Below the pieces are notes generated by a model. It was not told the origin of the DNA. It saw only the letters and a program-made list of their open reading frames with translations, and did no database searches. The translations under genes were made by a program, and so were the position numbers. DNA of 63,758 nt, the filler included, from Folioceros fuciformis (lineage: Eukaryota): the NCBI GenBank assembly GCA_049999805.1. It is 8 parts of 8 records of this genome, joined end to end, with 100 filler letters (N's around TTAATTAATTAA, not from the genome) between each part and the next. Parts side by side here need not be neighbours in the genome. Positions count along the whole stretch, not along the records: positions 59,322 to 62,057 come from JBNGIO010005898.1; 7 more parts are not named here. One strand, written 5' to 3'. Shown here one piece after another: positions 489-62,057 of this stretch (the first letter of the stretch is position 1; each line of letters opens with the position of its first letter).

Positions 489-1038
489 TTTGGATCAAGG
501 AAGCTCGATTTCAGACACTTAGTAGGGAAGCTAAGCAATATCCTCTCAAAAGGTGTTGCCCTTTGCCTTTCTTGAAGCGTAACAACACAAGTAGCTAGGT
601 TCACAATCTATATGCACTATGTAATCTCAAGAAGACATCAAGATGATAAACTTAATTGTGAGCTTGCAAAATAACCTAGAACGTCTACTTGTATTGATAA
701 AATAATATCATGTACAACACACATATATAGTATATGTAGCTCATTTACATATGATGGTATGTCATTTTGACATGATATCGAGCTTTAATAAAGTATGCCT
801 ATAAAGTTTGTGGACAAAAAGGTATTACATATCTTCAGTTTCCCACGGGGATGGGATATGCAATGGATGGCAGTGGGACAAAGTATCCACACGGTTTGAA
901 AGAACTTCATATGCAAAGCACATTCACAGTGTGTACATTACTGTGGAGCGATGCTGTACAAAAGGCATTTCGCTAAACTACGCGCTCTCTGTTCGGACAA
1001 TATGTGATTCCGAACGCGCTTGCTTCTATCGAGTTATC

Positions 1039-1138
1039 GGCCGTGTCGCAGCCGTAGTCGCCGGGGTATTCTCCCTTCAGATAGCTCGGGGGCTCGCCGG
1101 AGAACGGGCCCATGTATTTGGGCCTGTCTGGGCCGTAC
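1039..1138 (-). pseudogene. Isolated fragment of a major LHCII chlorophyll a/b-binding gene (Lhcb1/Lhcb2 type)
   Basis: Encodes [33 protein letters not shown], matching the conserved LHCII N-terminal WYGPDR.KYLGPFS...PSYL.GE.PGDYGWDTAG. Preceded by an acceptor-like ttgtAG. Similarity ends abruptly after DTA. Confidence 0.9.
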
Positions 1139-1531
1139 CTACAAGCAAGATCCGTGTTCCTTGATTTAGATCGCGTTGCATGTCTCATGGCTGGCTAGCT
1201 CGATGCATTCAAGAACGAACAGGTCTGGACGATTGCATCCCATGGTCTAGGTGAGAGGGTAACAAACGCAGCTCATTGAGGAGGAGCAAAGCACTTGGAC
1301 GCGAGTAATGGAGCAAAGGAAACTTGAGGTGTATGAGTGAACCGAGGAGAAAAGATTGCAAGCTAACTCTGAATTTGGGCGTGGAGTGGTCTAGGCAATG
1401 ATCGGCATATCTCTTGGGACCCGAAGTCTTAGTTTAGCTATCATAGAGGCAGCCCATATCAAGAAAGGGCGGGTAGAACTTACACAACATTCATTTCTCA
1501 ACAACAAAGGGTTGAACATATGGTTTCTAGT

Positions 1532-1745
1532 TCATGAGTTCATCTCATTCCTCCATAACATGTGCATCAAGATGTCTCTCAACCAGTGACCTTCGGCACT
1601 CTCGGGCCCAGTTGCCATGAAGTTTTGATGCATGCCATCTTCTTCGTCGTCCTCCTCGCCTGCCAATATTCTTGGATCTATCTCATCACCACGATCTATC
1701 CTAATGTTGTGCAGTAGCACACATGCATAAGTCAACGCATTGAAG
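1532..1745 (-). mobile_element. PIF/Harbinger DDE transposase C-terminal fragment
   Basis: YACVLLHNIRIDRGD, an acidic tract, then GHWLRDILMHMLW. This is the AC..LHN...R..L tail typical of Harbinger/HARBI1 transposases. Confidence 0.7.
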
Positions 1746-1812
1746 TAGTCGATGTTGCCTCGCCACACCCTCCTACCTAGTAAGGTCCAGAGATTCCACG
1801 AATTTCATTCCA

Positions 1813-1929
1813 CTTTGCCGTGGGAGCATCCGCAAAGCTAAGCTAGGCTTTGACGGCGGTGGCTAAGAAGCAAAAATCACCGCCCCTGGTCGAGGCACCG
1901 ACTAGGGAAGGTCCCGGGCTGGAATCACT
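1813..1929. repeat. 117-bp GC-rich multi-hairpin direct repeat, copy 1
   Basis: Matches 4219-4335 with 3 substitutions by eye. Confidence 0.9.
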
Positions 1930-3289: not shown

Positions 3290-3790
3290 TTAGTTGTGTT
3301 TGTGTTTGAAGGTGCAATCTTGAGGATTCTTGCACCACCCACTCAAAAAGTCTCTACAGATTGCTACATTATCGTCAGTTTTGATGTGCCTATACGCACA
3401 TTCTTCTCTACTGCAAAGTCCACCTTGAAGAAAGTATTTGCAATCAATCATCCTTTGTACTAGGAGGAGATGATTGTCATTTGTGGAGCTATTCATTTCT
3501 TCTTTGGTAGGAATGCTTGATTTTACACACGCTTTGCCACCTTCCTCTTCTAGTATTAGAAGACTTAATTTCTTTCTAGTCGGATGTCCACGTTTGAAGT
3601 ACTTTCTTCCACCAAGATGAACAATCTTGTAAGGAGAGGTGCTCAAATGACATTTACTGATCATAAGATTGTCAACCTTTTCGGGAGAAGTTCTCCCACC
3701 GTTTGCAGAAATCCTTACCCATGTGTGCGAGTTAAGACAACGTCTTGGCAATGCATATTTGTTCTTGGCTGTCCACTTCAAGCTCACCAT
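3290..3790 (-). CDS. Small intronless tandem CCCH zinc-finger protein (166 aa), copy A
   Basis: C-terminal C-x8-C-x4-C-x3-H and C-x7-C-x5-C-x3-H fingers. TATATATA about 50 nt upstream. Aligns end to end with 61051-61596. Confidence 0.75.
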   Translation of the reverse strand: MVSLKWTAKNKYALPRRCLNSHTWVRISANGGRTSPEKVDNLMISKCHLSTSPYKIVHLGGRKYFKRGHPTRKKLSLLILEEEGGKACVKSSIPTKEEMNSSTNDNHLLLVQRMIDCKYFLQGGLCSREECAYRHIKTDDNVAICRDFLSGWCKNPQDCTFKHKHN

Positions 3791-4218
3791 TTTCTAAGAT
3801 AATGTTTTGATACTTGAAGAGATAGTCGTGCACTCTATATATAGTGTAGGTATTGAGTCAAGAGTGACAAAGGCCAAGGAAACAAAAAGGCATCACACAA
3901 ACTTCCTTGGGTTATGAAATCACTTGTACATCATATCTATAAGTTTTCACCAACCGTACGTGCTCGATATCTTTTGTTGGATGCCTGCGCTGTTTTGAAA
4001 ACATGTGACCGTGATGGATGTGAGATTGGTGGCTGTTTTTAAGACCTGGTGGGTATGCGCGATGTCTGCAGGTCGCGGAGTTTGTACAAACAACTCTAAA
4101 CCGTAAATTGATAAGATCAGGACGTATGAGCTCCACGCCGAGCTCAAACATCCTCATGTCCTTCAAACGCACTCACCGGAGTCGATTTCGAATGTGCGAC
4201 TTTTCTTGGACGTTGTTG

Positions 4219-4335
4219 CTTTGCCGCGGGAGCATCCGCAAAGCTAAGCTAGGCTTTGACGGCGGTGGCTAAGAAGCAGAAATCACCGCCCCTGGTCGAG
4301 GCACCGACTAGGGAAGGTCCCAGGCTGGAATCACT
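4219..4335. repeat. 117-bp GC-rich multi-hairpin direct repeat, copy 2
   Basis: Matches 1813-1929, offset 2406 bp. Confidence 0.9.
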
Positions 4336-5110
4336 ACGCGCGGCTCAACGTACTTATGAGTTTTCTGCTCTTACTGTGTCACGAAGTCTCTTTCACCAGC
4401 GAGAACGGCGTGCGCACGCATATCATTTGATACCATCCTTACACATGGGGCCAAAATCTCGACGCAAGACGACATGTGGTGGAACGGCCCTTGCTCTTAT
4501 GCTGGAGTGGGAACGCAGCCTAATTCTTCTTACATAGGTTCGGGGATACCATGCAATTTCTCGGGCGTTTCTGTAGATAAGAGTTCACGATCCCGTCGCC
4601 TACCATGTCGTCCATAATCCGTGTCGGCTATCGTCACATCAGTCAGGACTGACAAGCCTTCATACGTTGACTCCGAGCAAGAATGAGGCCCCTCGAGGGC
4701 GAGGCGAGCTGGGCCAAGAAGGCCGAGCTCGGTTGCCCGACTGAAACGAGGCCACTTCATTCCTTGAAACCAAGTCCGAAGTTCTTTTCCTCGTCACATT
4801 CTGACTGCTTTTCGTTCGCCCCTTCACCCCGTGTCAGCTTCTTTATTTGTCCTATTTATCCAGCTATTTCTCTTTTTCAATCTAGATGTTTATTTGTTCT
4901 TGTTATTTATCGAGTTTCTTTTTCTAATATAGTTATGTAGGATATCTTTACATTTCCCTACTTTAGGTGTTCAAGCAAAGGAGAAATACATACAGTATAC
5001 CCCGCAGGGTACGGTTCCCGATGCCTGAATTGTTATCAGGACACTATGACAAGCAGGCCACAACCTCTGTGGATGGAGCAGAGGAGTTGACAGCCAGGGT
5101 CAGCCTTCAC

Positions 5111-6365
5111 CTAAAAATTATTTTGAGAGGTCGAGCTGAGGCTCGTAGGTGGGCCTGTTTGCAAAATTCTCTTTATCAGATCCATTCCAAACGAGGAGTC
5201 CGAGGAACTGCAACCAACACCCAACATTAAGCAACATGTGATAAAAACAATGCTAAGCAAAACGGGAAAAGAACGAGAGGCAAGACCTGGGAATTGTTAT
5301 CTCGTAAGGGAAGGGGATCGCTTCAGTGTTTAAGATGGGAGGTATGTGATCGTGCTTCTCATCAATGTAGCGTAAAATCTGCATCGTCACTTCCCGTAGA
5401 ACGTTTTCCAGAACTGCGTGCCGCTTGGATCTGTCTTCAACGACTGATTCTGAGCGGCATCAGTTACATAACAAAACTGTTTATTACTCTGGAAGTCCAA
5501 TATAAAGCTTTGTCATAGCTGAGAGGGGGAGACTCGCCGCCATCAACGAGCCCTACGGAATAGATACCTGAATATGGTTTCTTGTGTGATTGCGAGTACT
5601 GCACAACATTGAGCTGCACAGACCACTTCTCCCAGTCCAAACGTTCAACCTTGTTGCCAAACCAAGGTATCTTGGTGTCCTTGGTCTCATAGAAGGAGAG
5701 ACAAACCTGCGGAAAGCTCCGACTTTGAAGGCCTACTGCACGCAGCAGACTGCTATGAGGCATCACAAGTTTCCATGTCGAGATTAGTGTGTTACCTGGC
5801 TTTTCTTGTTTGGGTGTTTCTCAGCCCATGCGACGAACTGGTCAATCTTCTCCTCAATTCTTTTTTCAACATCAGGTTCTCCGCACTGCACCTGAACCAT
5901 GAAAATCAAGCAGATCAACTATCAAAATCATGAAGACCTACTTCTGAAGCTAAAAGCAAACACTGGATGGAAAGGTGCAGACCGACAACTCACATAGGTT
6001 ATTTCAAAAAGCTCTGAGTCGATATCTCGAGGTCGGACTAGCCCAAAAGCGCGGTTGAACATAATGGTGTGCAGGATGCCTGACATGCCACATCGGCACC
6101 ATGACAAGGTGAACCCCTTGCAGCTCTGTTGAATCAGATGCACAACAGGCAAAACAAAACAGCACAATCATTCACAAAAGAATCCGACAACGCACATCTT
6201 AGCACTTCCCGAATTTGGTACTGCTCCACCTCCTGCACGACATGTACAGCAAGCGTCTCATTGCGATTACTCCAGACACAAACCATGGATCCCGAACGGA
6301 ATGCCAAAATTCTGTTACACATTGCGACCTACCAGCTCTTTCAGATTGAACATCTCGCAATTCAT
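5111..6365 (-). CDS. ATG101: Autophagy-related protein 101 (HORMA), multi-exon
   Basis: Exons encode MNCEMFNLKEL / EVEQYQIREVLRC / ILHTIMFNRAFGLVRPRDIDSELFEITY / VCLSFYE...ERLDWEKW / SSDSSFGMDLIKRILQTGPP, all recognisable plant ATG101 segments, with GT-AG introns. Confidence 0.93.
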
Positions 6366-10485: not shown

Positions 10486-11292
10486 ATGGCTGCTGGCGTC
10501 GGGGAGGATTTATTTGAATTGAGGCGGCTGCTGTCGGAAGCAAAGCGTCCTAGGGTCCGGCAACTCCTTTCCAGTGAGATAGAAAGTCTGTCCACCTCAC
10601 AGCTAGGTTCACCAGCGGTATCCTCCTCTGGAACAGAACCGAACACATCGGTCCAGCATCTGCCAGTTTTACAGCAGAAGTCTGTGCAACAGAACTCTGC
10701 CCCTACTCCCGTGCAGAGCTCGCCACAGCTGCAGGCGACCATTGTCCCAGTCCTGACTTCCACGGTCGCTTCCACCGGTGACGTCCGGTACAACACTCTC
10801 TCGACATTCAGCTGGGATCAAACTAGTGACAGGATGAAGATCTACTACCCGCTGGAAGGAGCCAGCGAGGACAGGGTATCTGCCTCATTCCAGGAGTCGT
10901 CCTTCGATATCACGATTCGTGATGTCAACGGCAAGAACTATCGGTGCGGAGTCCCGAAGTTGAACAAATTGATCTCTCCGGAGAAATCGAGGGTGGTGGT
11001 GAAGCCTAAGCGCATCATTGTTTCCTTGGCGAAGAAGGAGACCGGCAACTGGCTGGATCTTCACAAGAAAGAAGATAAGTTGAAGAGCTCACTGGATGGC
11101 AAGGACAGTAAGGACCCTATGTCAGGGATTATGGATATGATGAAGAACATGTATGAAGAAGGCGACGACAACATGAAGAGGACCATTGCTCAGGCATGGA
11201 CGGAAGCCAGGAAAGGAGACAAGTCCAAGTCCAGTCTCAATCCGCTGGGAAGGCAGACACCTGGTCTGGATAACTTCGGTAGCGGCCTCTGA
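10486..11292 (+). CDS. CACYBP: Calcyclin-binding/Siah-interacting protein (N-terminal helical, CS and SGS domains), intronless CDS
   Basis: EDLFELRRLLSEAKRPRVRQLL; FSWDQTSDRMKIY (CS); DPMSGIMDMMKNMYEEGDDNMKRTIAQAW (SGS). First ATG at 10486. Confidence 0.9.
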   Translation: MAAGVGEDLFELRRLLSEAKRPRVRQLLSSEIESLSTSQLGSPAVSSSGTEPNTSVQHLPVLQQKSVQQNSAPTPVQSSPQLQATIVPVLTSTVASTGDVRYNTLSTFSWDQTSDRMKIYYPLEGASEDRVSASFQESSFDITIRDVNGKNYRCGVPKLNKLISPEKSRVVVKPKRIIVSLAKKETGNWLDLHKKEDKLKSSLDGKDSKDPMSGIMDMMKNMYEEGDDNMKRTIAQAWTEARKGDKSKSSLNPLGRQTPGLDNFGSGL

Positions 11293-32669: not shown

Positions 32670-35600
32670 GGATAACTAACACCACATGAGTTTAGCTCAT
32701 ATAGAGCTCGATAACTCAACACTCCCCCTCGAGCTCAACAGAGCATTTGTACGCCTAACATAGCTCGGAATTTCTTCAGCTTCTCTGCTCCCATTGGCTT
32801 AGTAAATATATCGGCTATCTGCTCGTCTGTGTTGACATACACAAGATCAATAGCTCCAGATAAAATCCGTTCGCGAAGAAAATGATAATGTATTTCAATG
32901 TGTTTTGTCCTGGCATGAAACACTGGGTTTCGCGCCAACTGTATGCTGCTAAGATTGTCACAGTAGATAACAACCTTGTCGTTGACCTGCAATCCAAAAT
33001 CTCCGAGTAACTTACAAATCCAAGTCACTTCACACGCTGCCATTGCTGCGCCTCTGTATTCAGCTTCTGTACTAGACAAAGCCACTGTAGGCTGCTTCTT
33101 GCTACTCCATGTAATTGCTGCACTCCCAAGTGAAAAAATGAATCCACTTGTAGATCTACGATCAGTAACACTGCCTGCCCAATCTGCATCTGTGTACCCA
33201 CACAGGTTTATTTCTAAATCTGCAACATAAAAGAGAGCATGATCCATAGTTGCCTTCACATAGCGCAACGTTCGCCTTACTGCATCCAAATGTGGCTTTC
33301 TTGGCGCTTGCATAAACTGACTTTGCAATCCCACTGTATAGTTCAAATCTGGTCGGGATAGAGTGAGATATATCAAGCTACCCACAATCTTCCTGTACAT
33401 TGTTGGATCTTCAAGTGCTTCACCATCATGAGCACTGAGCTTTAGATTTTGATCCAAAGGAATCGAGATTGGCTTGCACTCAACCATACCATACTTAGTT
33501 AGTACATCCGACGCATACTTCCGCTGTGACAGCCAAATGCCTGTGTTGGTTCGTATAATTTCAATGCCCAAAAAGAACCTCAGTTCACCTAGGTCTGCCA
33601 TCTTGAACTCTTGTTGTAGAAGTTCTTTGATCTGCTCCACTTGATCCAACTGATTACCTCCAATGATTAGATCATCCACATAAATAGTCACAAAGACCAG
33701 TCGTTTTGTACTTTTGCACACATACAACGAATGATCCGCATCTGCCATGTTGAATCCGATGTGAATCAGATGCTGAGCAAGACGCTCATGCCAAGCCCTC
33801 GGGGCTTGCTTCAGTCCGTACAACGTTTTTTTCAGCTTGCACACATGATTTGGATGATCCAAATCCTCATAACCTGGTGGCTGGTCCATGTATACTTCTT
33901 CCAGCAATTCTCCATGTAAAAACGCATTCTTCACATCCATATGATGTAGGACCCAACCTTTCGATGCCGCTAGTGCGATCACGGTTCGAATTGTTGCCAT
34001 TTTGGCAACTGGACTGAACGTCTCCTCAAAATCTATTCCATATGTCTGGGCATGTTCCTTGGCCACAAGCCTTGCCTTGTACCTGTTGATACTACCATCT
34101 GCATTGTGTTTGACCTTGTACACCCATTTGCAACCTATTGGTTTCTTGCCTTCAGGTAGTTGTACTAGGTCCCATGTTGCATTCTGATTTAACGCATTCA
34201 TTTCTTCATCCATAGCATGTTCCCACTTTGTGTCTCCAATAGCTTCTTCAAAGCTTCTTGGTTCCACATCCTGTACAACCTTTGCCATATAGGCATGGTG
34301 CCTAGCTACATAGCTATCATAGGTCAACCGCTGTATTGGAACCTTCTGCCTTCCAGATCTCCGTGGGATTGAACCACTTCCAGGGGCTGATTGAACCTCT
34401 TTTGCACCAGGTGTTTCAATTTTCGGTACACCGAATTCCTCATCCAAGCTCTGCTCAGAGTCGCTTGAATCATCCGCACCTGCACTTAGGTCTGGTATCT
34501 TTGAATCCTGGACTGTTTCCTTCCCTTTGCGAGACACAGCTGTGGAGCTCGTAGGACTCACACTACCTCGCAACCTGCCACTCCATGGATTCTGAACATT
34601 TGTCGAGTTTGATGACGCTTGCGGTCCACTCAACACTTGTGATTGTTGACCTGCATTGCTTGTTACCTCAGTTTCAAGCAAATCAGCTACACTACTTCCT
34701 TGTACTTCAAAGTACCAGCTACCCATTTCATCAAAGACTACGTCTCTGCTTACTCTCATAGTCCGTGTACTGGGATTGTAGCACCTGTATCCTTTCTGTG
34801 TAACAGAATACCCAATGAAGACACACTTTTCTGCTTTTGGATCAAGCTTAGTCCGCAACTCATCCGGAATATGGACATAAGCAATGCAACCAAATACCTT
34901 TAAGTGTGACAAGTCAGGTTTCTTTCCTGTGAACTTCTCCTCCGGTGTTACACTGTGCACCGCTGCTGTGGAAGTTCTGTTCATGATGTACACTGCTGTG
35001 CTTACAGCTTCAGCCCAATAGTAGTGAGGCATCTTCTTCTCTGTCATCAATGCTCTCGCCACTTCTGCTATGTGCCTGTTCTTGCGCTCTGCAACTCCAT
35101 TTTGTTGTGGCGTATAACGACATGAGTACTGCCGTTGAATGCCCTGTTCTGATAAGAATTTGCTGAACTCTCTGGAGAAGTACTCTCCCCCTCCATCAGA
35201 TCTTAGGCATTTGATGTGCCTACCTGTCTGCTTCTCAACCATCGCCTTGAAAGTATGAAAATGAGTAATCACTTCACTTTTTTCTTTCATGAAATAGACC
35301 CACACCTTCCTTGTGTGGTCGTCAATGAAGGTCACATAGTACTTGCAGCCTCCGATTGATGCAGTCTGTGTAGGACCCCATACATCTGAATGCACAACAT
35401 CCAACACATATCTGCTGACATGTTTGTCATGGGGGAACGCATTCCTAGGCTGTTTCCCAAGTTGACATGCTTCACATATACCTTGCAGTCCATTTTCTGT
35501 AAGCTTGGGTATGCCTGTGACAACCTTCTGATGCTGCATGGACTTCAACTTCTGCACATTTACATGTCCAATGCGTTTGTGCCACATCTCTAGGTCTGTC

Positions 35601-37738
35601 ACTACCCTTGTACCCTTCGCAAACATGGCTGACTTCAGCTTAGGAACCTCCACGTTCAAGGTGAACATCCGTCCAACCTTCTGTCCTTGAGCAATCAGGC
35701 GACCGCCTTTCTTGCACTCTTCAACAAAGAGTCCTGCAGGTGTAAATCTAACCTGCAGTCCTTGCTCAACCATCTGCCCAACTGACACCAAGTTCTTTGT
35801 GATGTTGGGTACGTGAAGAACATCTACCAGGCACTTCACTTTGCCATCCTGCATCTTCAGAGGTACAGTTCCTGTATGCACAATTGCATGTGTTGTGTCA
35901 TCTCCAGTTTCTACATATCCAGGTTTGTCAAGCACTTGCATTTCTTTGAACCACTCCCCATGGCATGTCATGTGGTTCGAAGCTCCTGAGTCCACATACC
36001 ACACAATCTCACCATTGTTGGATCCATTAGCAGACACAGAGTTAAGCATATGCTGCATGACAAACAAGTTTTCTGAGTCATTCTGACTGCTGCTAGAGGC
36101 ATAATTGTTCTGCTGCCTCCTGTTGCCTTGATTTCTCCTTGGACAGTCTCTTTCGAAGTGGTCTAACCTACCACAAGTCCAGCAACCACTATTGTCTGCA
36201 TTTGCATCATTTTGTTGTTGATTTCCACGTCCTCTTTGACTCCCCCAGCCTCGAGAATTTTCTCCTCTTCCACGTGTACTCTTGTACTGGGACTCCTGAT
36301 TCTGTTGTTGATTTTGGTAGGGATTCCGACCTCTACCACCTCTTTGCCCTCTGCCACCTTGGGCTCTACCTCTGCCTCTGCCAGAGTAGAAGGCCTGCTC
36401 AGAGTTTTCCTTAGGCTTAGAGGATGATTCCTCGCCTAGGTTTTTCTCCTCTATGATCAACATAGAAATCAGGTCTGAGAAATTGGGAATGTTTTCCCGA
36501 GTCTGTATGGAAGTCTTGAACTGCTTGTAGGCAGGTGTTAACCCGCGAAAGCAAACTTCGACCTTGTCATCATCTTCCACACTGACATCAATGGACGCAA
36601 GGGATTCCACTATCCCTTTGATCTTTAACGCGTACTCATTGATTGATAAGTTCTTCTTCATAATTGTGTTGAAGTCATTCTTCAACTGCAGTTTTCTCGC
36701 CTTCGTGTTAGTCTCATAGAGTTTTACCAACTCATCCCATGCTTCTTTGAGCGACTCTGCATCCTGTATGTGCCCAATCATGGTGTCATGAATGCTGATT
36801 GATAGCCAATACATGACCTTCCGAGATCCTTGACTCCAATCCTTCAGCGCCTTAATCTGCTCCGCTGTTGCATTCCGTTCAAGTACTATAGGGGGTTTTT
36901 CATGCTCCCCCTCAATGTAGTCCCAATAACCCTTTCCCATAAGAAAGTTTGTAAAACGAAACTTCCAGGCATGGAAGTTGTTTTTGTCCAGCTTCTCCTG
37001 TACGATCTGGTTAATACTGTCACTGGCCATTCTTGCCACCACTCAAGGTTGACACTTAATCCTTTCTTGAGTACTCACACCTGATAAATGTCTGAAAGAA
37101 CCAGACTGCTTCTGACTGGAGTTTTACTCACAAGACCTTAAGTCTCTTCTTCCTAAGAGCAATCTGGTGCGGAATCACGCTGCCTTGCGTGAACCAGATT
37201 GTCTTATGCTCCGTGTCCTTACAGACTCTTGACTGTCTGCCCACAAAGCTCCCGTGAGATTTCCTGTCAATTCCTTCCCTGCTGCCAAGCTAGGGTTAGC
37301 ACACTTTCTTGCAGCTGCTGCCTCCACTTGTCAGCCCTTCCACAGAGCTCTGGGGATCAACAGCTAGTCCAGTAAGCTGACAGGGCCTTGTCGCCCTTCT
37401 CCTCACTTCCTGCACACACCGATATGAGAGCGATATGAGAGTTAGCTGCCGGGACGCTTGCTGCCGATTTCCCTCCAAGCTGCTCCAACTTCTCGTAGCT
37501 GCTCTAGCTTCTGGTGTGCACTCTTGCTGCCTCTTGCAGCACCTCCTACGCCGATCTTGCACCGCCTGCACCGGGCTCTGATACCATGTCAATAGGATCG
37601 ACTCCAATCTACGTGCAAGTGTAGGAGAGGAGAGGAGAGAAGAGAGGGTGGTATTGGTGATCACAACCATGAAAACAATACACATCACCACTGTCTTACT
37701 ATGGAGGTCCGAGGTCTCCATTTAAGTAGTACATTTAG
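32670..37738 (-). mobile_element. Ty1/Copia LTR retrotransposon 2, complete internal region, both LTRs cut by gaps
   Basis: LTR end ...GACA followed by a perfect iMet PBS TGGTATCAGAGC (37575-37586). PPT GAGGGGGAG then TGTTGA LTR start at 32721. Confidence 0.97.
32735..37042 (-). CDS. Uninterrupted Copia gag-pol polyprotein (1435 aa)
   Basis: CWTCGRLDHFERDC; WYVDSGAS; WHKRIGH; VHSDVWG/LRSDGGGEY/QQNGVAER (integrase DDE); IYVDD; YTDADWAG; ARTKHIEIHYHF. No stops. Confidence 0.96.
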   Translation of the reverse strand: MVARMASDSINQIVQEKLDKNNFHAWKFRFTNFLMGKGYWDYIEGEHEKPPIVLERNATAEQIKALKDWSQGSRKVMYWLSISIHDTMIGHIQDAESLKEAWDELVKLYETNTKARKLQLKNDFNTIMKKNLSINEYALKIKGIVESLASIDVSVEDDDKVEVCFRGLTPAYKQFKTSIQTRENIPNFSDLISMLIIEEKNLGEESSSKPKENSEQAFYSGRGRGRAQGGRGQRGGRGRNPYQNQQQNQESQYKSTRGRGENSRGWGSQRGRGNQQQNDANADNSGCWTCGRLDHFERDCPRRNQGNRRQQNNYASSSSQNDSENLFVMQHMLNSVSANGSNNGEIVWYVDSGASNHMTCHGEWFKEMQVLDKPGYVETGDDTTHAIVHTGTVPLKMQDGKVKCLVDVLHVPNITKNLVSVGQMVEQGLQVRFTPAGLFVEECKKGGRLIAQGQKVGRMFTLNVEVPKLKSAMFAKGTRVVTDLEMWHKRIGHVNVQKLKSMQHQKVVTGIPKLTENGLQGICEACQLGKQPRNAFPHDKHVSRYVLDVVHSDVWGPTQTASIGGCKYYVTFIDDHTRKVWVYFMKEKSEVITHFHTFKAMVEKQTGRHIKCLRSDGGGEYFSREFSKFLSEQGIQRQYSCRYTPQQNGVAERKNRHIAEVARALMTEKKMPHYYWAEAVSTAVYIMNRTSTAAVHSVTPEEKFTGKKPDLSHLKVFGCIAYVHIPDELRTKLDPKAEKCVFIGYSVTQKGYRCYNPSTRTMRVSRDVVFDEMGSWYFEVQGSSVADLLETEVTSNAGQQSQVLSGPQASSNSTNVQNPWSGRLRGSVSPTSSTAVSRKGKETVQDSKIPDLSAGADDSSDSEQSLDEEFGVPKIETPGAKEVQSAPGSGSIPRRSGRQKVPIQRLTYDSYVARHHAYMAKVVQDVEPRSFEEAIGDTKWEHAMDEEMNALNQNATWDLVQLPEGKKPIGCKWVYKVKHNADGSINRYKARLVAKEHAQTYGIDFEETFSPVAKMATIRTVIALAASKGWVLHHMDVKNAFLHGELLEEVYMDQPPGYEDLDHPNHVCKLKKTLYGLKQAPRAWHERLAQHLIHIGFNMADADHSLYVCKSTKRLVFVTIYVDDLIIGGNQLDQVEQIKELLQQEFKMADLGELRFFLGIEIIRTNTGIWLSQRKYASDVLTKYGMVECKPISIPLDQNLKLSAHDGEALEDPTMYRKIVGSLIYLTLSRPDLNYTVGLQSQFMQAPRKPHLDAVRRTLRYVKATMDHALFYVADLEINLCGYTDADWAGSVTDRRSTSGFIFSLGSAAITWSSKKQPTVALSSTEAEYRGAAMAACEVTWICKLLGDFGLQVNDKVVIYCDNLSSIQLARNPVFHARTKHIEIHYHFLRERILSGAIDLVYVNTDEQIADIFTKPMGAEKLKKFRAMLGVQMLC

Positions 37739-42569: not shown

Positions 42570-44624
42570 AGGGTGAAGAACAAGACCCCAGCGCCTGTGC
42601 AGATTACAGCGGAGCAGATTTTGAGGGAGGCCCGGGAGCGGCAGGAAGCGGAAATACGGCCGCCTAAGCAGAAGATTGCCGACGCTGAGGAGCTCGGGGA
42701 GTATAGGTTGCGGCAGAGGAAGGAGTTTGAAGACCGAATTCGGCGGGTGCGGTGGAACGTCAGCGTGTGGGTCAAGTACGCGCAGTGGGAGGAGAAGCAG
42801 CACGATTTTGACCGGGCCAGGTCCATTTGGGAGAGAGCATTGCAGGTGGAATATCGGAACACCACGCTATGGCTCAAGTACGCGGAGATGGAGATGAAGA
42901 ACCGTTTCTTGAACCGGGCCAGGAATGTGTGGGATCGGGCTGTGACTCTGCTGCCCAGGATAGATCAGCTGTGGTACAAGTACATTCACATGGAGGAGAT
43001 GCTTGGGAACATCGCTGGTGCCAGACAGATTTTCGAGAGGTGGATGATGTGGGAGCCGGACCACCACGGGTGGGCGGCGTACATCAAGTTTGAGCTCCGG
43101 TACAATGAGGTTGACAGGGCCAGGGCTTTGTTCGATAGGTATGTGAATTGTCATCCCACTGTGAGGTCGTGGGTACGTTACGCAAAATTTGAAGTGAAGA
43201 ACGGGGAGATAGGGCGTGCCAGACAGTGCTATGAGAGGGCCATGGAGCAGCTGGGGGAGGACGGGCAGACGGAGGAGTTGTTTGTCGCTTTTGCCCAGTT
43301 TGAGGAGCGGTGCAAGGAGGTGGAACGGGCTCGTTGCATTTACAAGTATGCTCTGGATCACATCCCAAAGGCGCAGGCAGAGGAGCTTTACAAGAAGTTT
43401 GCTACGTTCGAGAGGCAGTTCGGGGACCGGGACGGCATAGAGGATGTTATTGTGGGGAAGCGTAGGTTTCAGTACGAGGAGCAGGTGAAGTTAAACCCGC
43501 TCAACTATGATGCATGGTTTGACTACGTTCGCCTTGAGGAGAGTGTTGGGGACAAGGAGAAGGTTAGGGAAGTGTACGAGAGAGCTGTGGCTAATGTTCC
43601 ACCTGCAGAGGAGAAGAGGTACTGGCAGAGATACATATACTTGTGGATAAACTATGCTCTGTATGAGGAGCTGGAGGCTCAAGACATGGAGCGGACGAAG
43701 GATGTGTACAAGGAGTGCCTTAAGTTGATACCACACAAGCAGTTTTCATTTGCGAAAATCTGGCTCATGGCTGCACAGTTTGCTATTCGACAGAAGAACC
43801 TGCAGTCAGCTAGGCAGATTTTGGGGTCTGCCATCGGGATGGCTCCCAAGGACAAGATATTCAAGACTTACATAGAGGTCGAACTGCAGCTGGGGAACAT
43901 TGACAGGTGCCGAACACTGTACGAGAAGTACTTGGATTGGGCTCCAGCAAATTGTTACGCATGGAGCAAGTTCGCTGAGTTAGAAAGGTCTCTGGGGGAA
44001 ACGGAAAGGGGACGAGCTATTTTTGAACTGGCCATCTCTCAGCCAGTTTTGGATATGCCGGAGTTGCTGTGGAAGGCGTACATTGAATTTGAAATATCCG
44101 AAGGGGAGCATGAGAGAACAAGGGAATTGTATGAGCGGTTGCTAAACCGTACCAAACACCTCAAGGTTTGGGTAAGTTTTGCAAAATTCGAAGCTGCTGT
44201 GTCTTCTCAAGAGGAATTAAGGGCCCAGGAAGAAGGCCGAGAGCCAGATGCAGGCCTTCTACAGGAGCATAACCAGAAAAGGGTGCTTCGGTGTAGAGAT
44301 GTATTTCAGAGGGCCTTTGAAAGCTTACGGTCTGGGGCACCCGAACAGAAAGAGGAGAGGGCAATGCTCCTTGAAGAATGGCTAGAGATGGAGCGAAGCT
44401 TTGGGGAGCTAGGTGACGTGCCTTTGGTGCAACGGAAGTTGCCAAGAAGAGTGAAGAGAAAGCGTGCCATTTCTGCCGAAGATGGAACTGTAGCTGGGTA
44501 TGAAGAGTATACGGACTACATTTTCCCCGAGGAAGCAGGCATTGTTCCCAACATTAAGATTCTGGAAGCCGCTTACAAGTGGAAGAGGCAAAAGGTTAAC
44601 GTGGACGAGGATGACTCAACATAG
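42570..44624 (+). CDS. CRNKL1: Crooked neck-like pre-mRNA splicing factor (CRN/Clf1/Syf3, HAT repeats); N-terminus lost in the gap, visible part intronless
   Basis: RVKNKTPAPVQITAEQILREA; RQRKEFED; repeated HAT motifs; NPLNYDAWFDY; EKRYWQRYIYLWINYA; YTDYIFPEE...KILEAAYKWK. Confidence 0.96.
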   Translation, partial: RVKNKTPAPVQITAEQILREARERQEAEIRPPKQKIADAEELGEYRLRQRKEFEDRIRRVRWNVSVWVKYAQWEEKQHDFDRARSIWERALQVEYRNTTLWLKYAEMEMKNRFLNRARNVWDRAVTLLPRIDQLWYKYIHMEEMLGNIAGARQIFERWMMWEPDHHGWAAYIKFELRYNEVDRARALFDRYVNCHPTVRSWVRYAKFEVKNGEIGRARQCYERAMEQLGEDGQTEELFVAFAQFEERCKEVERARCIYKYALDHIPKAQAEELYKKFATFERQFGDRDGIEDVIVGKRRFQYEEQVKLNPLNYDAWFDYVRLEESVGDKEKVREVYERAVANVPPAEEKRYWQRYIYLWINYALYEELEAQDMERTKDVYKECLKLIPHKQFSFAKIWLMAAQFAIRQKNLQSARQILGSAIGMAPKDKIFKTYIEVELQLGNIDRCRTLYEKYLDWAPANCYAWSKFAELERSLGETERGRAIFELAISQPVLDMPELLWKAYIEFEISEGEHERTRELYERLLNRTKHLKVWVSFAKFEAAVSSQEELRAQEEGREPDAGLLQEHNQKRVLRCRDVFQRAFESLRSGAPEQKEERAMLLEEWLEMERSFGELGDVPLVQRKLPRRVKRKRAISAEDGTVAGYEEYTDYIFPEEAGIVPNIKILEAAYKWKRQKVNVDEDDST

Positions 44625-59321: not shown

Positions 59322-59982
59322 AAGTAGAAAATACCTCCATGCATAGTGATCGTTACTTGCTTCGTCAAGATTGCAAATATTTTCTTCAAGGCGGACTTTG
59401 TGGCAGAGAAAAATGTATGTATAGGCATATTAAAACTAGTGATGATGCATTGATTTGTCAAGACTTTTTAAATGGAGTCTGCAAAAATCCTAACACTTGC
59501 AACTTCAAACATTATATTTAACATAACAATAGATGTAGGTTTTACTTGTGAAATAAAGTATAAGCTATTTCACTAATAACCCATGGGAGTAAAAGGATTC
59601 CCCAAGTTCACGTCGCTTTTAGAAAGTGGCACAAATTAGTGTTCATGAATTTTAAATGATTTTGTCTCAAAGCCTACCATTGTAATGTTGCCTTTTTATT
59701 TTACTATGGCCAAATGGGTCTCAAGAGCAATGGGGATGAAAATGTGCTCATCTTGTAGGGGAGAATACTTATGGACTTTGGAACTTGTATAACCCTCCGC
59801 TGCACATCGAGAAAGGTTGATGACAACATGCTCACAAATCAAATCCCTAGTGCAATCCATGACAACCACATTAGTGACACAAACTTGTTCCCCACTAGTG
59901 AGGAAAAAGTCAGCTTTAAGTAAAATCCTTTTGCACAAAGTATATAAACGCTCTCTATACAAAAGAAACTCACATTCTCTAG
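59322..59982. repeat. 661-bp segment apparently identical to 61397-62057 (period 2075 bp); includes the 3' part of a CCCH ORF (stop at 59521)
   Basis: The contig begins and ends with the same sequence. The ORF track gives identical peptides at 59339/61414 and 59696/61771. Confidence 0.93.
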
Positions 59983-60245
59983 CCGTTGAGAACATGAAAT
60001 CCTAAAGTACATCATGGGTGGCAATGTAGTGCCTCCCGATAGGACAAACGTACCACATAGGACCCTATGTCGACAATAGCAATCCCACAACTATATGTAG
60101 AGAGACGAAAAGCTAAGGGTGGGCCAAACCTATGCAAAATCTCATTATCGTGGCAAAAGTTGCTAGTGTGATTCAAAACGCCTAGATGCAAGGTCAAACC
60201 GAAAGCCAACAGCTTACTCCTTGACCTAAAGAACAGCAAATACAA
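59696..60245 (-). mobile_element. Decayed C-terminus of a CRE-type non-LTR retrotransposon (zinc knuckle + restriction-like endonuclease)
   Basis: SCG...D.GS...CPIGRHYIATHDVL*DFMFSTARE...KADFF...TNVVVMD...SKVHKY...FIPIALETH: knuckle followed by RxD...DV...K..KY...F.P.A.ET motifs. Confidence 0.65.
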
Positions 60246-60578
60246 GCCCTATGAATGGATGAGTCCAAAAGAAGAGCTCTCTTCACACAATTTTTACAAC
60301 AAGGGTTTGTTAACATGGCATAAATGATGTTTTTTATTGTGCATATAAATTTTATTAGTTTTTATTTAAATCATTTTAAATTTTATTTAAATATTTTCCC
60401 CTAATGTATTAAATAAATAAATCTATACTTAGTTTTATTTTAGTAAGAATAAGATGATACAGATACTAAGTTTAAGTTAAATAATAGCCATATGTATACG
60501 AACCTTTATCGAAATACGGTAACCCTAAACACTTGAGGTCTACCTCTTTATTTTATTTTAATATATTCTTCAATAGTC

Positions 60579-60586
60579 TATATAAA
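60579..60586 (+). promoter_or_regulatory. TATA box upstream of the 48-bp array and CCCH copy B
   Basis: CTATATAAAGGG, preceded by a telo-box-like AACCCTAAA at about 60520. Confidence 0.5.
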
Positions 60587-60652
60587 GGGCCTACTCTACA
60601 CTTTGGTCCATTGTGTATCATTAGTGAGCCTCTCATAGTTTCCTACCCAGCA

Positions 60653-60980
60653 CTCTCTTCGTTATTGTAACTCATGTGCTATTGGCAGTTCTTGCCTATT
60701 TGCTCTTTGTTGGCGTAACTTATATGCTATCGGTAGTTCTCTCTTGTTTGCTCTTTGTTGTTGTATCTTATTTGCTATTGGTAGCTTTCCTTTGTTTACT
60801 CTTTGTTGTTATAACTTATGTGCTAGTGGTAAATCTCTCTTGTTTGCTCTTTGTTGTTCTAGTTTATGTGCTATTGGTAGCTCTCTCTTGTTTGTTCTTT
60901 GTTGTTTTAGCTTACGTGGTGTTGCTAACCCTCTCTTCTTTGCTCTTTGTTGTTGTAGTTTGTGTGCTTTTGGTAGCCTT
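60653..60980 (+). repeat. 48-bp minisatellite (about 7 diverged units), stop-free in one frame
   Basis: ORF 60676-60990 reads as 16-aa units of the form VLLVALSCLLFVVxxY. Confidence 0.88.
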
Positions 60981-61050
60981 GTATGAATAACACCTTACTA
61001 ATAGCTCTTCACACTCAAAGGATTAAGTATCAAAAGTACTATCCTACAAA

Positions 61051-61596
61051 ATGGTGAGCTCTAAATGGTTTGCACCGACACTCAAGAAAAAAGATGTAAA
61101 AAGCCCTCTTAGCTCACACTCATGGTTAAGACCCTCCGTACACATTCAAAGCAGTTTTCAACAGCATAAGGTTTCCAATCCTAGTATTCGTAAATTTTGC
61201 TTGATATTTACTCATAATAAGATTGTCAATCTTACTCAAAGAAAAGACTACTCGCAAAACCAGGCAGCACTTAAAAAATTAGGGTTTTTGAAGGTAAGAA
61301 AAGAAGGTCGTCACAATGTTTGGCTAAAATCAGGCATTTATTCTAAAGAAGAAAATGGTACCCATAGCCCAGTAAAAGTTCCTTTATATCATAAGCAAGT
61401 AGAAAATACCTCCATGCATAGTGATCGTTACTTGCTTCGTCAAGATTGCAAATATTTTCTTCAAGGCGGACTTTGTGGCAGAGAAAAATGTATGTATAGG
61501 CATATTAAAACTAGTGATGATGCATTGATTTGTCAAGACTTTTTAAATGGAGTCTGCAAAAATCCTAACACTTGCAACTTCAAACATTATATTTAA
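61051..61596 (+). CDS. Small intronless tandem CCCH zinc-finger protein (181 aa), copy B
   Basis: DCKYFLQGGLCGREKCMYRH and ICQDFLNGVCKNPNTCNFKH; aaaATGG context; homologous to 3290-3790. Confidence 0.78.
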   Translation: MVSSKWFAPTLKKKDVKSPLSSHSWLRPSVHIQSSFQQHKVSNPSIRKFCLIFTHNKIVNLTQRKDYSQNQAALKKLGFLKVRKEGRHNVWLKSGIYSKEENGTHSPVKVPLYHKQVENTSMHSDRYLLRQDCKYFLQGGLCGREKCMYRHIKTSDDALICQDFLNGVCKNPNTCNFKHYI

Positions 61597-62057
61597 CATA
61601 ACAATAGATGTAGGTTTTACTTGTGAAATAAAGTATAAGCTATTTCACTAATAACCCATGGGAGTAAAAGGATTCCCCAAGTTCACGTCGCTTTTAGAAA
61701 GTGGCACAAATTAGTGTTCATGAATTTTAAATGATTTTGTCTCAAAGCCTACCATTGTAATGTTGCCTTTTTATTTTACTATGGCCAAATGGGTCTCAAG
61801 AGCAATGGGGATGAAAATGTGCTCATCTTGTAGGGGAGAATACTTATGGACTTTGGAACTTGTATAACCCTCCGCTGCACATCGAGAAAGGTTGATGACA
61901 ACATGCTCACAAATCAAATCCCTAGTGCAATCCATGACAACCACATTAGTGACACAAACTTGTTCCCCACTAGTGAGGAAAAAGTCAGCTTTAAGTAAAA
62001 TCCTTTTGCACAAAGTATATAAACGCTCTCTATACAAAAGAAACTCACATTCTCTAG
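61397..62057. repeat. Second copy of the 661-bp segment (CCCH 3' end + convergent CRE relic)
   Basis: Matches 59322-59982. Confidence 0.93.

What the first reader, a model, noticed from the sequence alone, without database searches (positions are those of the whole stretch)
61051..61596. TE-associated family of intronless mini tandem-CCCH proteins with ZC3H3/SOP1-like fingers (partner copy at 3290-3790)
Seen: two AT-rich intronless ORFs 57 kb apart, both in transposon debris, align end to end (MVSxKW..., L.SH.W.R.S, KIV.L, KKL, KS.I..KEE, then two CCCH fingers). They share the leader aagtatcaaaa...tatc...aaaATGGTGAGC and each has an upstream TATA. The N-terminal parts are strongly diverged with in-frame indels, yet neither has a stop, whereas nearby TE relics are broken. 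Known: the pattern RM.DC.YFLQG.C....C.YRH......IC..FL.G.C.....C...H resembles, from memory, adjacent fingers of the large ZC3H3/SOP1-type nuclear RNA-surveillance proteins. Inference: a captured, miniaturised RNA-binding module under selection that spreads with mobile DNA, possibly a decoy or anti-surveillance factor, or else a lineage-specific host family.
Basis: partly seen in the sequence, partly recalled or inferred. Interest (0 to 1): 0.8.

Follow-up and report, generated by a model that had tools for sequence, protein, structure and literature searches.

The report
Miniature SOP1-finger genes in a hornwort
A small, young gene family in a likely hornwort genome keeps only two zinc fingers of the RNA-surveillance protein SOP1/ZC3H3, spread by local duplication rather than on transposons, looks methylated in the sampled tissue, and would likely act, if expressed, as a loose competitor for the polyadenylation factor FIP1.

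Summary
Both ORFs are real and homologous end to end (42% identity). Their fingers score best against fingers 3-4 of SOP1/ZC3H3; the basic N-terminal part matches nothing outside this genome. The fingers are under purifying selection (omega 0.29, p 0.001-0.004), the N-terminus evolves at a neutral rate, and the frames were kept open. The transposon-cargo idea fails. A sits in a near-identical 2075-bp tandem unit (about 5 copies by depth). B and a paralog lie beside duplicated ATG101-like genes. The LINE fragment next to A carries no such ORF on 17 other contigs. Two of four distinct loci are broken, and A and B look CG/CHG-methylated in one converted-DNA run. The 57-kb spacing crosses six scaffold gaps. 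Best reading: a birth-and-death host family, probably stage-restricted. It keeps the finger that reads the poly(A) signal and the finger that binds FIP1 in human ZC3H3, but lacks fingers 1, 2 and 5, so it would compete rather than recruit. A FIP1 complex prediction gave weak support only (0.49, best control 0.00, possibly from memory). Expression is not shown. New variant of a known kind; modest interest.

The parts
61051..61596 (+). ORF A, 181 aa: basic fast-evolving N-terminal 130 aa plus two CCCH fingers
61447..61587 (+). Fingers of A: C-x8-C-x4-C-x3-H, 9-aa linker, C-x7-C-x5-C-x3-H (match SOP1 fingers 3-4); Val168 at the inferred FIP1-pocket position
61025..61050 (+). Leader shared with B, B2 and B3
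60579..60586 (+). TATA-like motif about 470 bases before the ATG of A; an orphan 71%-identical copy of this upstream region lies on contig C3227
60655..60977 (+). 48-bp tandem array, 6.7 copies, between the TATA-like motif and the ATG
59983..62057 (+). 2075-bp head-to-tail unit holding gene A; collapsed array of roughly 5 near-identical copies (depth ratio, approximate)
59322..59982 (+). End of the preceding tandem unit, 661 bases identical to 61397-62057, including the last 65 codons of A
61789..62057 (-). Part of the 3' end of a dispersed non-LTR retrotransposon (continues at 59983-60280), antisense to A, about 80% identical to dozens of copies; the endonuclease-type LINE label is from recalled motifs
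3290..3790 (-). ORF B, 166 aa, intact paralog
3302..3442 (-). Fingers of B; Trp152 at the inferred FIP1-pocket position
3791..3843 (-). TATA-like motif (3836-3843) and shared leader of B
5111..6365 (-). ATG101-like host gene (label recalled), spliced in RNA contigs; duplicated together with B on contig C3311

Best explanation
These are young host genes, likely cut down from the SOP1/ZC3H3 RNA-surveillance gene to fingers 3 and 4, that multiplied by tandem and segmental duplication, appear methylated in the sampled tissue, and would likely work in some other life stage as a free finger pair that binds FIP1 and A-rich RNA without joining the decay machinery. Shown here: homology, copy layout, selection on the fingers and on the open frame, and two broken copies. 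Inferred from sequence scores: origin from SOP1 fingers 3-4. Inferred from one converted-DNA run: CG/CHG methylation. Inferred from human ZC3H3 and CPSF30 work: finger 3 reads the AA of the poly(A) signal, finger 4 binds FIP1, and finger 1 of CPSF30 anchors to CPSF160. A protein with only fingers 3-4 and a basic tail would therefore compete with SOP1 or CPSF30 for FIP1 and shift poly(A)-linked decay. Untested: expression, localisation, binding.
For: Fingers: all 150 best hits of a profile search over 1.84 billion proteins match only the finger end (profile 100-164); 131 of the 150 are SOP1/ZC3H3-type by motif, 4 CPSF30-type, 15 other. Pair scores: 122-157 against finger 3-4 of five plant SOP1-type proteins, at most 111 against two CPSF30-type proteins. 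The genome has one five-finger SOP1-like gene whose fingers lie in one open frame, so no intron loss is needed. Selection: finger omega 0.294, omega=1 rejected at p 0.001-0.004 in three models; all eight Zn ligands are kept in A and B; indels 15 in 911 flank bases against 1 in 922 ORF bases among B-type copies, pairs not independent. Duplication: tandem joint and fivefold depth for A; B and B3 share an ATG101-like neighbour at 81%. Methylation: over ORF A, 82 differences against 82 CHH sites, with 17 CG/CHG sites left; two ATG101 pieces are fully converted, 19/19 and 12/12. In Anthoceros, short CG/CHG-methylated genes are silent in thallus and 9.3% of them are expressed in sporophytes (PMC10952607). 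Finger roles: PMC12873606, PMC7706699. Complex of B fingers with the genome's FIP1 motif: weak support, 0.49 against best control 0.00, runs agree in 100% of contacts, partner pLDDT at least 83.
Against: Two of four distinct loci are broken: B2 has a 1-base frameshift and has lost a His ligand; B3 has a stop in finger 1 and is cut by a LINE-like insertion. N-terminal omega is about 1 (p 0.6-0.7). B's own branch has 4 replacement and 3 silent finger changes, and neutral stop-free survival over that short span is 14-22%, so current selection on B is not shown. The inferred FIP1-pocket residue is Tyr or Phe in 135 of 145 related finger pairs but Val in A, Leu in B2 and Trp in B, so A, the amplified copy, may have weakened it. 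The complex score lies in a range reached by only 5 of 78 solved complexes and by all 4 false passes, and a like complex (CPSF30-FIP1) is solved, so it may be memory. Trees on 50 columns do not place the family; a CPSF30 origin is not rejected (p-AU 0.08 and 0.54). The x8 spacing of the first finger is the CPSF30 finger-3 spacing, though 3 SOP1/ZC3H3-type proteins have it too. About 60% of methylated short genes in Anthoceros overlap TEs.
Confidence: 0.45

Rival explanations
1. Once-functional SOP1-derived genes that are now silenced and decaying. The finger constraint is historical, and the tandem array of A is a passive recent amplification.
For: 2 of 4 loci broken; an orphan upstream region without ORF on C3227; methylated like TEs with CpG observed/expected 0.44-0.48, as in the copia ORF (0.46) and below three host genes (0.64-0.69); no excess of silent changes on B's own branch; Val at the pocket position in A.
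Against: Both deep lineages, A and B, still have an intact copy with all eight Zn ligands after dS 0.6-0.86; neutral survival at that depth is under 1% per lineage; indels are purged from B-type ORFs.
Confidence: 0.33
2. Expressed, stage-specific RNA-binding proteins with a new job unrelated to FIP1, for example binding A/U-rich transcripts through both fingers and the basic tail.
For: The RNA-face aromatics of the first finger are kept; the second finger has an aromatic before K-H where most SOP1 relatives have a basic or polar residue; pI 9.5-9.8; the pocket residue varies (V, W, L).
Against: No direct evidence of a target; the weak FIP1 prediction leans the other way.
Confidence: 0.14
3. 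Transposon-borne anti-surveillance factor carried as cargo by a mobile element.
For: A's unit contains a LINE 3' fragment; TE remnants abut B2 and B3; TE-like methylation; TE-like GC and CpG depletion.
Against: Only four distinct loci. The flanking repeat differs at each locus. 0 of 17 other contigs with A's repeat encode the protein (best tblastn E 0.33). No shared terminal inverted repeat. B moved with a host gene. No relative in viral or metagenome contigs.
Confidence: 0.05
4. The ORFs are last exons of larger ordinary genes.
For: B has a possible splice acceptor four bases before its ATG.
Against: A lacks that acceptor; in-frame stops lie 1 and 8 codons before the ATGs (open frames 167 and 189 aa); the ATG context is shared by all four copies; the full SOP1-like gene is elsewhere; A is flanked by copies of itself.
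Confidence: 0.03

Closest known systems
SOP1 (Arabidopsis At1g21580) / human ZC3H3 / fission yeast Red5
   Same: Finger pair with the finger 3-4 pattern, 9-residue linker, 45-48% identity over the fingers to the genome's own SOP1-like gene. SOP1 has five C-terminal fingers and serves HEN2/PAXT-type decay (PMC4735120, PMC8894942, passages).
   Different: Two of five fingers only; one extra Gly in finger 3; no significant match of the N-terminus to SOP1 regions; 166-181 aa against about 2000 aa for many top hits; multi-copy, fast-evolving, methylated.
CPSF30 / Yth1 (poly(A) signal reader; ZF4-ZF5 bind FIP1)
   Same: Best PDB sequence match (E 2e-12); same C-x8-C-x4 and C-x7-C-x5 spacing as ZF3-ZF4.
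   Different: Lower pair scores than SOP1 (at most 111 against 122-157); the genome has its own separate CPSF30-like gene with an intron in the finger region; no YTH domain or finger 1.
Anthoceros cluster P2 genes (short, CG/CHG-methylated, silent in thallus)
   Same: Short ORFs with CG and CHG protection near TE remnants (PMC10952607 section read).
   Different: A chromatin class, not a family; histone marks and sporophyte expression were not testable here.
Plant TZF / tristetraprolin-type tandem CCCH proteins
   Same: Two adjacent CCCH fingers in a small protein.
   Different: Spacing and linker differ (TZF/TTP pattern recalled, not from a call); the TTP-family PDB entry matches only weakly (E 0.27).

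Membership tests
SOP1/ZC3H3/Red5 | Cluster of five CCCH fingers | tested here: not met
   Two fingers only
SOP1/ZC3H3/Red5 | Fingers closest in sequence to SOP1/ZC3H3 fingers | tested here: met
   131 of 150 best hits; finger 3-4 scores 122-157 in plants against at most 111 for CPSF30-type
SOP1/ZC3H3/Red5 | Groups with SOP1/ZC3H3 in a finger tree | tested here: inconclusive
   50 columns; none of five groupings rejected, p-AU 0.07-0.61
SOP1/ZC3H3/Red5 | Conserved region upstream of finger 1 | tested here: inconclusive
   One motif aligns by eye but is not significant: 127 of 1000 shuffles score as well, HHalign probability 0.1%
SOP1/ZC3H3/Red5 | Aromatic FIP1-pocket residue in finger 4 (Y150 of ZC3H3 isoform 2; mapping to this column inferred) | tested here: inconclusive
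   Trp in B, Val in A, Leu in B2; Tyr/Phe in 135 of 145; weak complex prediction for B
SOP1/ZC3H3/Red5 | Association with HEN2/MTR4-PAXT and decay of its targets | not testable with these tools
   Needs pull-down and mutant RNA-seq
CPSF30/Yth1 | Finger array with the CPSF30 finger-2 motif and CPSF160-binding finger 1 | tested here: not met
   Absent; a separate CPSF30-like gene exists
Transposon cargo gene (Pack-type, Helitron or retroelement accessory ORF) | Copies sit inside one element family with shared ends | tested here: not met
   Different flanks at each locus; no shared inverted repeat; 0 of 17 repeat-bearing contigs carry the ORF
Retrocopy of SOP1 | Loss of parental introns and a poly(A) remnant | tested here: inconclusive
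   The parental finger region has no intron to lose; no poly(A) run after either stop

The most novel reading that the evidence does not exclude
Hornworts have built a fast-evolving, copy-number-variable microprotein from SOP1 fingers 3-4 that is demethylated in a reproductive stage and titrates FIP1 away from SOP1 and CPSF30, switching off poly(A)-coupled nuclear RNA decay for a time: an endogenous inhibitor of PAXT-type surveillance.
Probability: 0.12. Interest if true: 0.75.

Novelty: new variant of a known kind. Interest (0 to 1): 0.33.

Why it matters
Human ZC3H3 can pull down the CPSF160-WDR33 core and bind FIP1 through finger 4 (PMC12873606). A natural protein made of just fingers 3-4 is a ready probe of whether plant SOP1 works the same way, and of whether poly(A)-linked RNA decay can be tuned by a competitor. 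If the genes are merely decaying, they are an ordinary birth-and-death paralog family of local interest.

Tried and rejected
Expression: no RNA holder listed for A's unit. One RNA-type run (X4, guessed type, contigs only, another sample) covers the spliced neighbouring genes but has no cover over B and only a repeat-like piece on A's unit; this is recorded here only and not used as evidence. Homolog search with B (91-291 aa): 15 candidates, none at E 0.01. A and B are not in the 15-billion collection as exact sequences. Viral and metagenome contigs: 91 and 539 pattern hits, none confirmed. N-terminal origin: HMM, HHalign and shuffle tests not significant; 1 of 24 pairwise tests reached 23/1000 shuffles, as expected by chance. 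ESM Atlas: residues 1-110 inside the whole protein gave a ZC3H3 cluster at 0.81, but the N-terminus alone gave no usable hit, so the first result was rejected as context bleed. Whole-protein fold failed (pLDDT 34.5); the finger model (pLDDT 72) had no Foldseek hit at E 0.001, top rows CPSF30 ZF4-5. Trees unresolved. Pfam gave no TE domain for the debris near B or the LINE fragment, so those labels rest on copy number and recalled motifs. The 117-bp direct repeat around B (1813-1929, 4219-4335) was considered as an LTR pair and rejected: no TG...CA ends and no other copy. Weak HicA and AVR-Pik profile hits (E 0.03-0.04) were taken as chance. Earlier-findings look-ups returned nothing. No relative genomes are held, so orthologs could not be checked.

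Full report
Observation. ORF A (61051-61596, +, 181 aa) and ORF B (3290-3790, -, 166 aa) are intact and intronless. BLASTP aligns them from the first residue to the last finger, 77 of 182 identical, E 5e-37. Pfam zf-CCCH passes its cut-off in both. The shared leader is real. The window is a scaffold of eight pieces joined by N linkers, six of them between B and A, so the 57-kb spacing is not a measured distance. The host is a land plant with an 87-Mb assembly; the closest named relative of a neighbouring gene (65%) is from the hornwort Nothoceros, so I treat it as a likely hornwort.

Copies. A protein search of the genome scored 8 candidates and returned 7 matches: A, a partial second A, B, two more copies on contig C3311 (B2, B3), and two stretches of one five-finger SOP1-like gene on C6396. 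Searches with the SOP1-like fingers (6 matches of 7 candidates) and with the N-terminus alone (4 of 5) added no further copy; these searches give lower bounds. B2 has a 1-base frameshift in finger 2 and Tyr for the last His of finger 1. B3 has a stop in finger 1 and is cut off by a LINE-like ORF. An orphan 71% copy of A's upstream region without an ORF lies on C3227.

How they spread. A's contig has 661 identical bases at both ends. In two DNA runs of one sample, possibly the source of the assembly, a single contig joins 62057 back to 59983 at depth 45.7 and 55.9, against 7.6-9.5 for long single-copy contigs near B in the first run. This points to a collapsed array of about five near-identical 2075-bp units; depth is only a rough guide. 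The unit contains about 570 bases of a dispersed repeat (80 matches from 40 scored of 302 candidates) that is the 3' end of a non-LTR retrotransposon by its translated motifs (label recalled). None of 21 loci on 17 other contigs with this repeat encodes the protein (best E 0.33). B and B3 both lie downstream of ATG101-like genes that are 81% identical over 1285 bases, a segmental duplication with a host gene. No terminal inverted repeat is shared. TE remnants are neighbours and disruptors, not carriers.

Selection. Counting methods give A-B dS 0.59-0.86, finger dN/dS 0.23-0.39 and N-terminal 0.71-1.09. Codon models on all four copies give finger omega 0.294 and reject omega=1 (p 0.001-0.004, kappa on a grid), while the N-terminus fits omega=1 (p 0.63-0.72). 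A neutral simulation without indels keeps 14, 7 and 0 of 2000 frames open at 0.25, 0.30 and 0.43 substitutions per site. B-type flanks hold 15 indels in 911 bases, their ORFs 1 in 922 (pairs share branches). Against current selection: over the short B-family span 14-22% of neutral frames survive, and B's private finger changes are 4 replacement and 3 silent.

Chromatin. Run X3 shows almost only C>T and G>A changes, so I read it as a converted methylation library; its type is not on record. Over ORF A one contig has 82 differences where the minus strand has 82 CHH, 8 CG and 9 CHG sites; its upstream contig has 85 differences for 87 CHH sites. In B, among listed sites 0 of 5 CG, 1 of 4 CHG and 18 of 24 CHH were converted (the table was cut). 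Two short ATG101 pieces are fully converted (19 of 19, 12 of 12). Caveats: contigs not reads, one sample, an identity filter that favours protected pieces, and a small control. In Anthoceros agrestis, expressed genes lack non-CG methylation, while short CG/CHG-methylated genes are silent in thallus, about 60% overlap TEs and 9.3% are expressed in sporophytes (PMC10952607; passages and one section read).

What the fingers are. A profile search of 1.84 billion representatives found 799 hits at E 0.001, none at 1e-30; all 150 listed match only the finger end, and 131 are SOP1/ZC3H3-type by motif. The pair scores 122-157 against fingers 3-4 of five plant SOP1-type proteins, at most 89 against their other finger pairs, and at most 111 against two CPSF30-type proteins. 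Trees join A and B (95/99) on a long branch but cannot place them; no tested grouping was rejected, and the best likelihood was with the own SOP1-like gene and its two closest relatives, not significantly (the second tree used 35 of the rows). The N-terminus has no significant relative.

Mechanism. SOP1 has five C-terminal fingers and is needed for a subset of HEN2-exosome targets (PMC4735120, PMC8894942; passages). ZC3H3 is a PAXT component (PMC7049725; passages). In human ZC3H3, finger 3 is predicted to read the AA of the poly(A) signal and finger 4 binds FIP1 through Y150, shown by pull-down; finger 1 of CPSF30 binds CPSF160 (PMC12873606; passages and one section, figures and supplement not seen). 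CPSF30 ZF4 uses Y127, F131, H142 and R144 (PMC7706699; passages). The mini proteins keep exactly fingers 3-4. At the column I map to F131/Y150, 135 of 145 related pairs have Tyr or Phe; B has Trp, A Val, B2 Leu. A prediction of B's fingers with the genome's single FIP1 motif gave weak support: 0.49 against best control 0.00, contacts agreeing 100%, partner pLDDT at least 83. Only 5 of 78 solved complexes passed this low, all 4 false passes did, and the solved CPSF30-FIP1 complex may have been recalled. A was not tested. The inferred action is a competitor for FIP1 or poly(A)-signal RNA that lacks the anchoring fingers. It needs expression, which is not shown.

Literature. Ten searches, seen as listings unless named above, showed no paper on a two-finger SOP1/ZC3H3 derivative or on hornwort CCCH genes. 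The library is limited to open papers, and supplements of hornwort genome papers were not seen.

Verdict. A real, small, lineage-restricted derivative of a known family, turning over by birth and death. The transposon-cargo reading is not supported. A living stage-restricted FIP1 competitor (0.45) narrowly leads decay (0.33). Interest 0.33.

Noticed in passing
L008 (G000:C3311) about 3960-5200, minus strand: A second, diverged ATG101-like gene between B2 and B3, 81% identical to the window copy; an RNA contig's loose end matches it by eye, so both paralogs may be transcribed.
   Followed up: partly
L009 6960-8334 (G000:C6396 about 166960-168330): The genome's SOP1-like gene looks compact (roughly 400-450 aa, two short upstream introns by eye) with all five fingers in one open frame; similar compact proteins P0001, P0003 and P0135 occur in other assemblies.
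   Followed up: partly
window 32735-37030 (-): Open 1431-aa copia-type polyprotein with gag, protease, integrase and RT domains.
   Followed up: no
window 1300-1782: Young repeat, 87-100% identical to at least ten other places, two of them small contigs with the repeat at both ends; probably an LTR.
   Followed up: partly
window 973-1194 (-): Fragment resembling a chlorophyll a/b-binding protein N-terminus (recalled; no Pfam hit) among repeat debris.
   Followed up: no
window 42888-44624 and 10486-11292: Single-ORF crooked-neck-like (HAT repeats) and calcyclin-binding/SIP-like genes, both without introns in the coding stretch.
   Followed up: no
window 1813-1929 and 4219-4335: 117-bp direct repeat, 97% identical, bracketing B at 2406 bases; no LTR-like ends.
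   Followed up: partly
window 61381: One C/T difference between two runs of the same sample inside ORF A (Pro111/Ser), probably a variant among the tandem copies.
   Followed up: no
L059 (G000:C3227:3601-3893, -): Orphan copy of A's TATA region and 48-bp repeats without a downstream ORF.
   Followed up: yes
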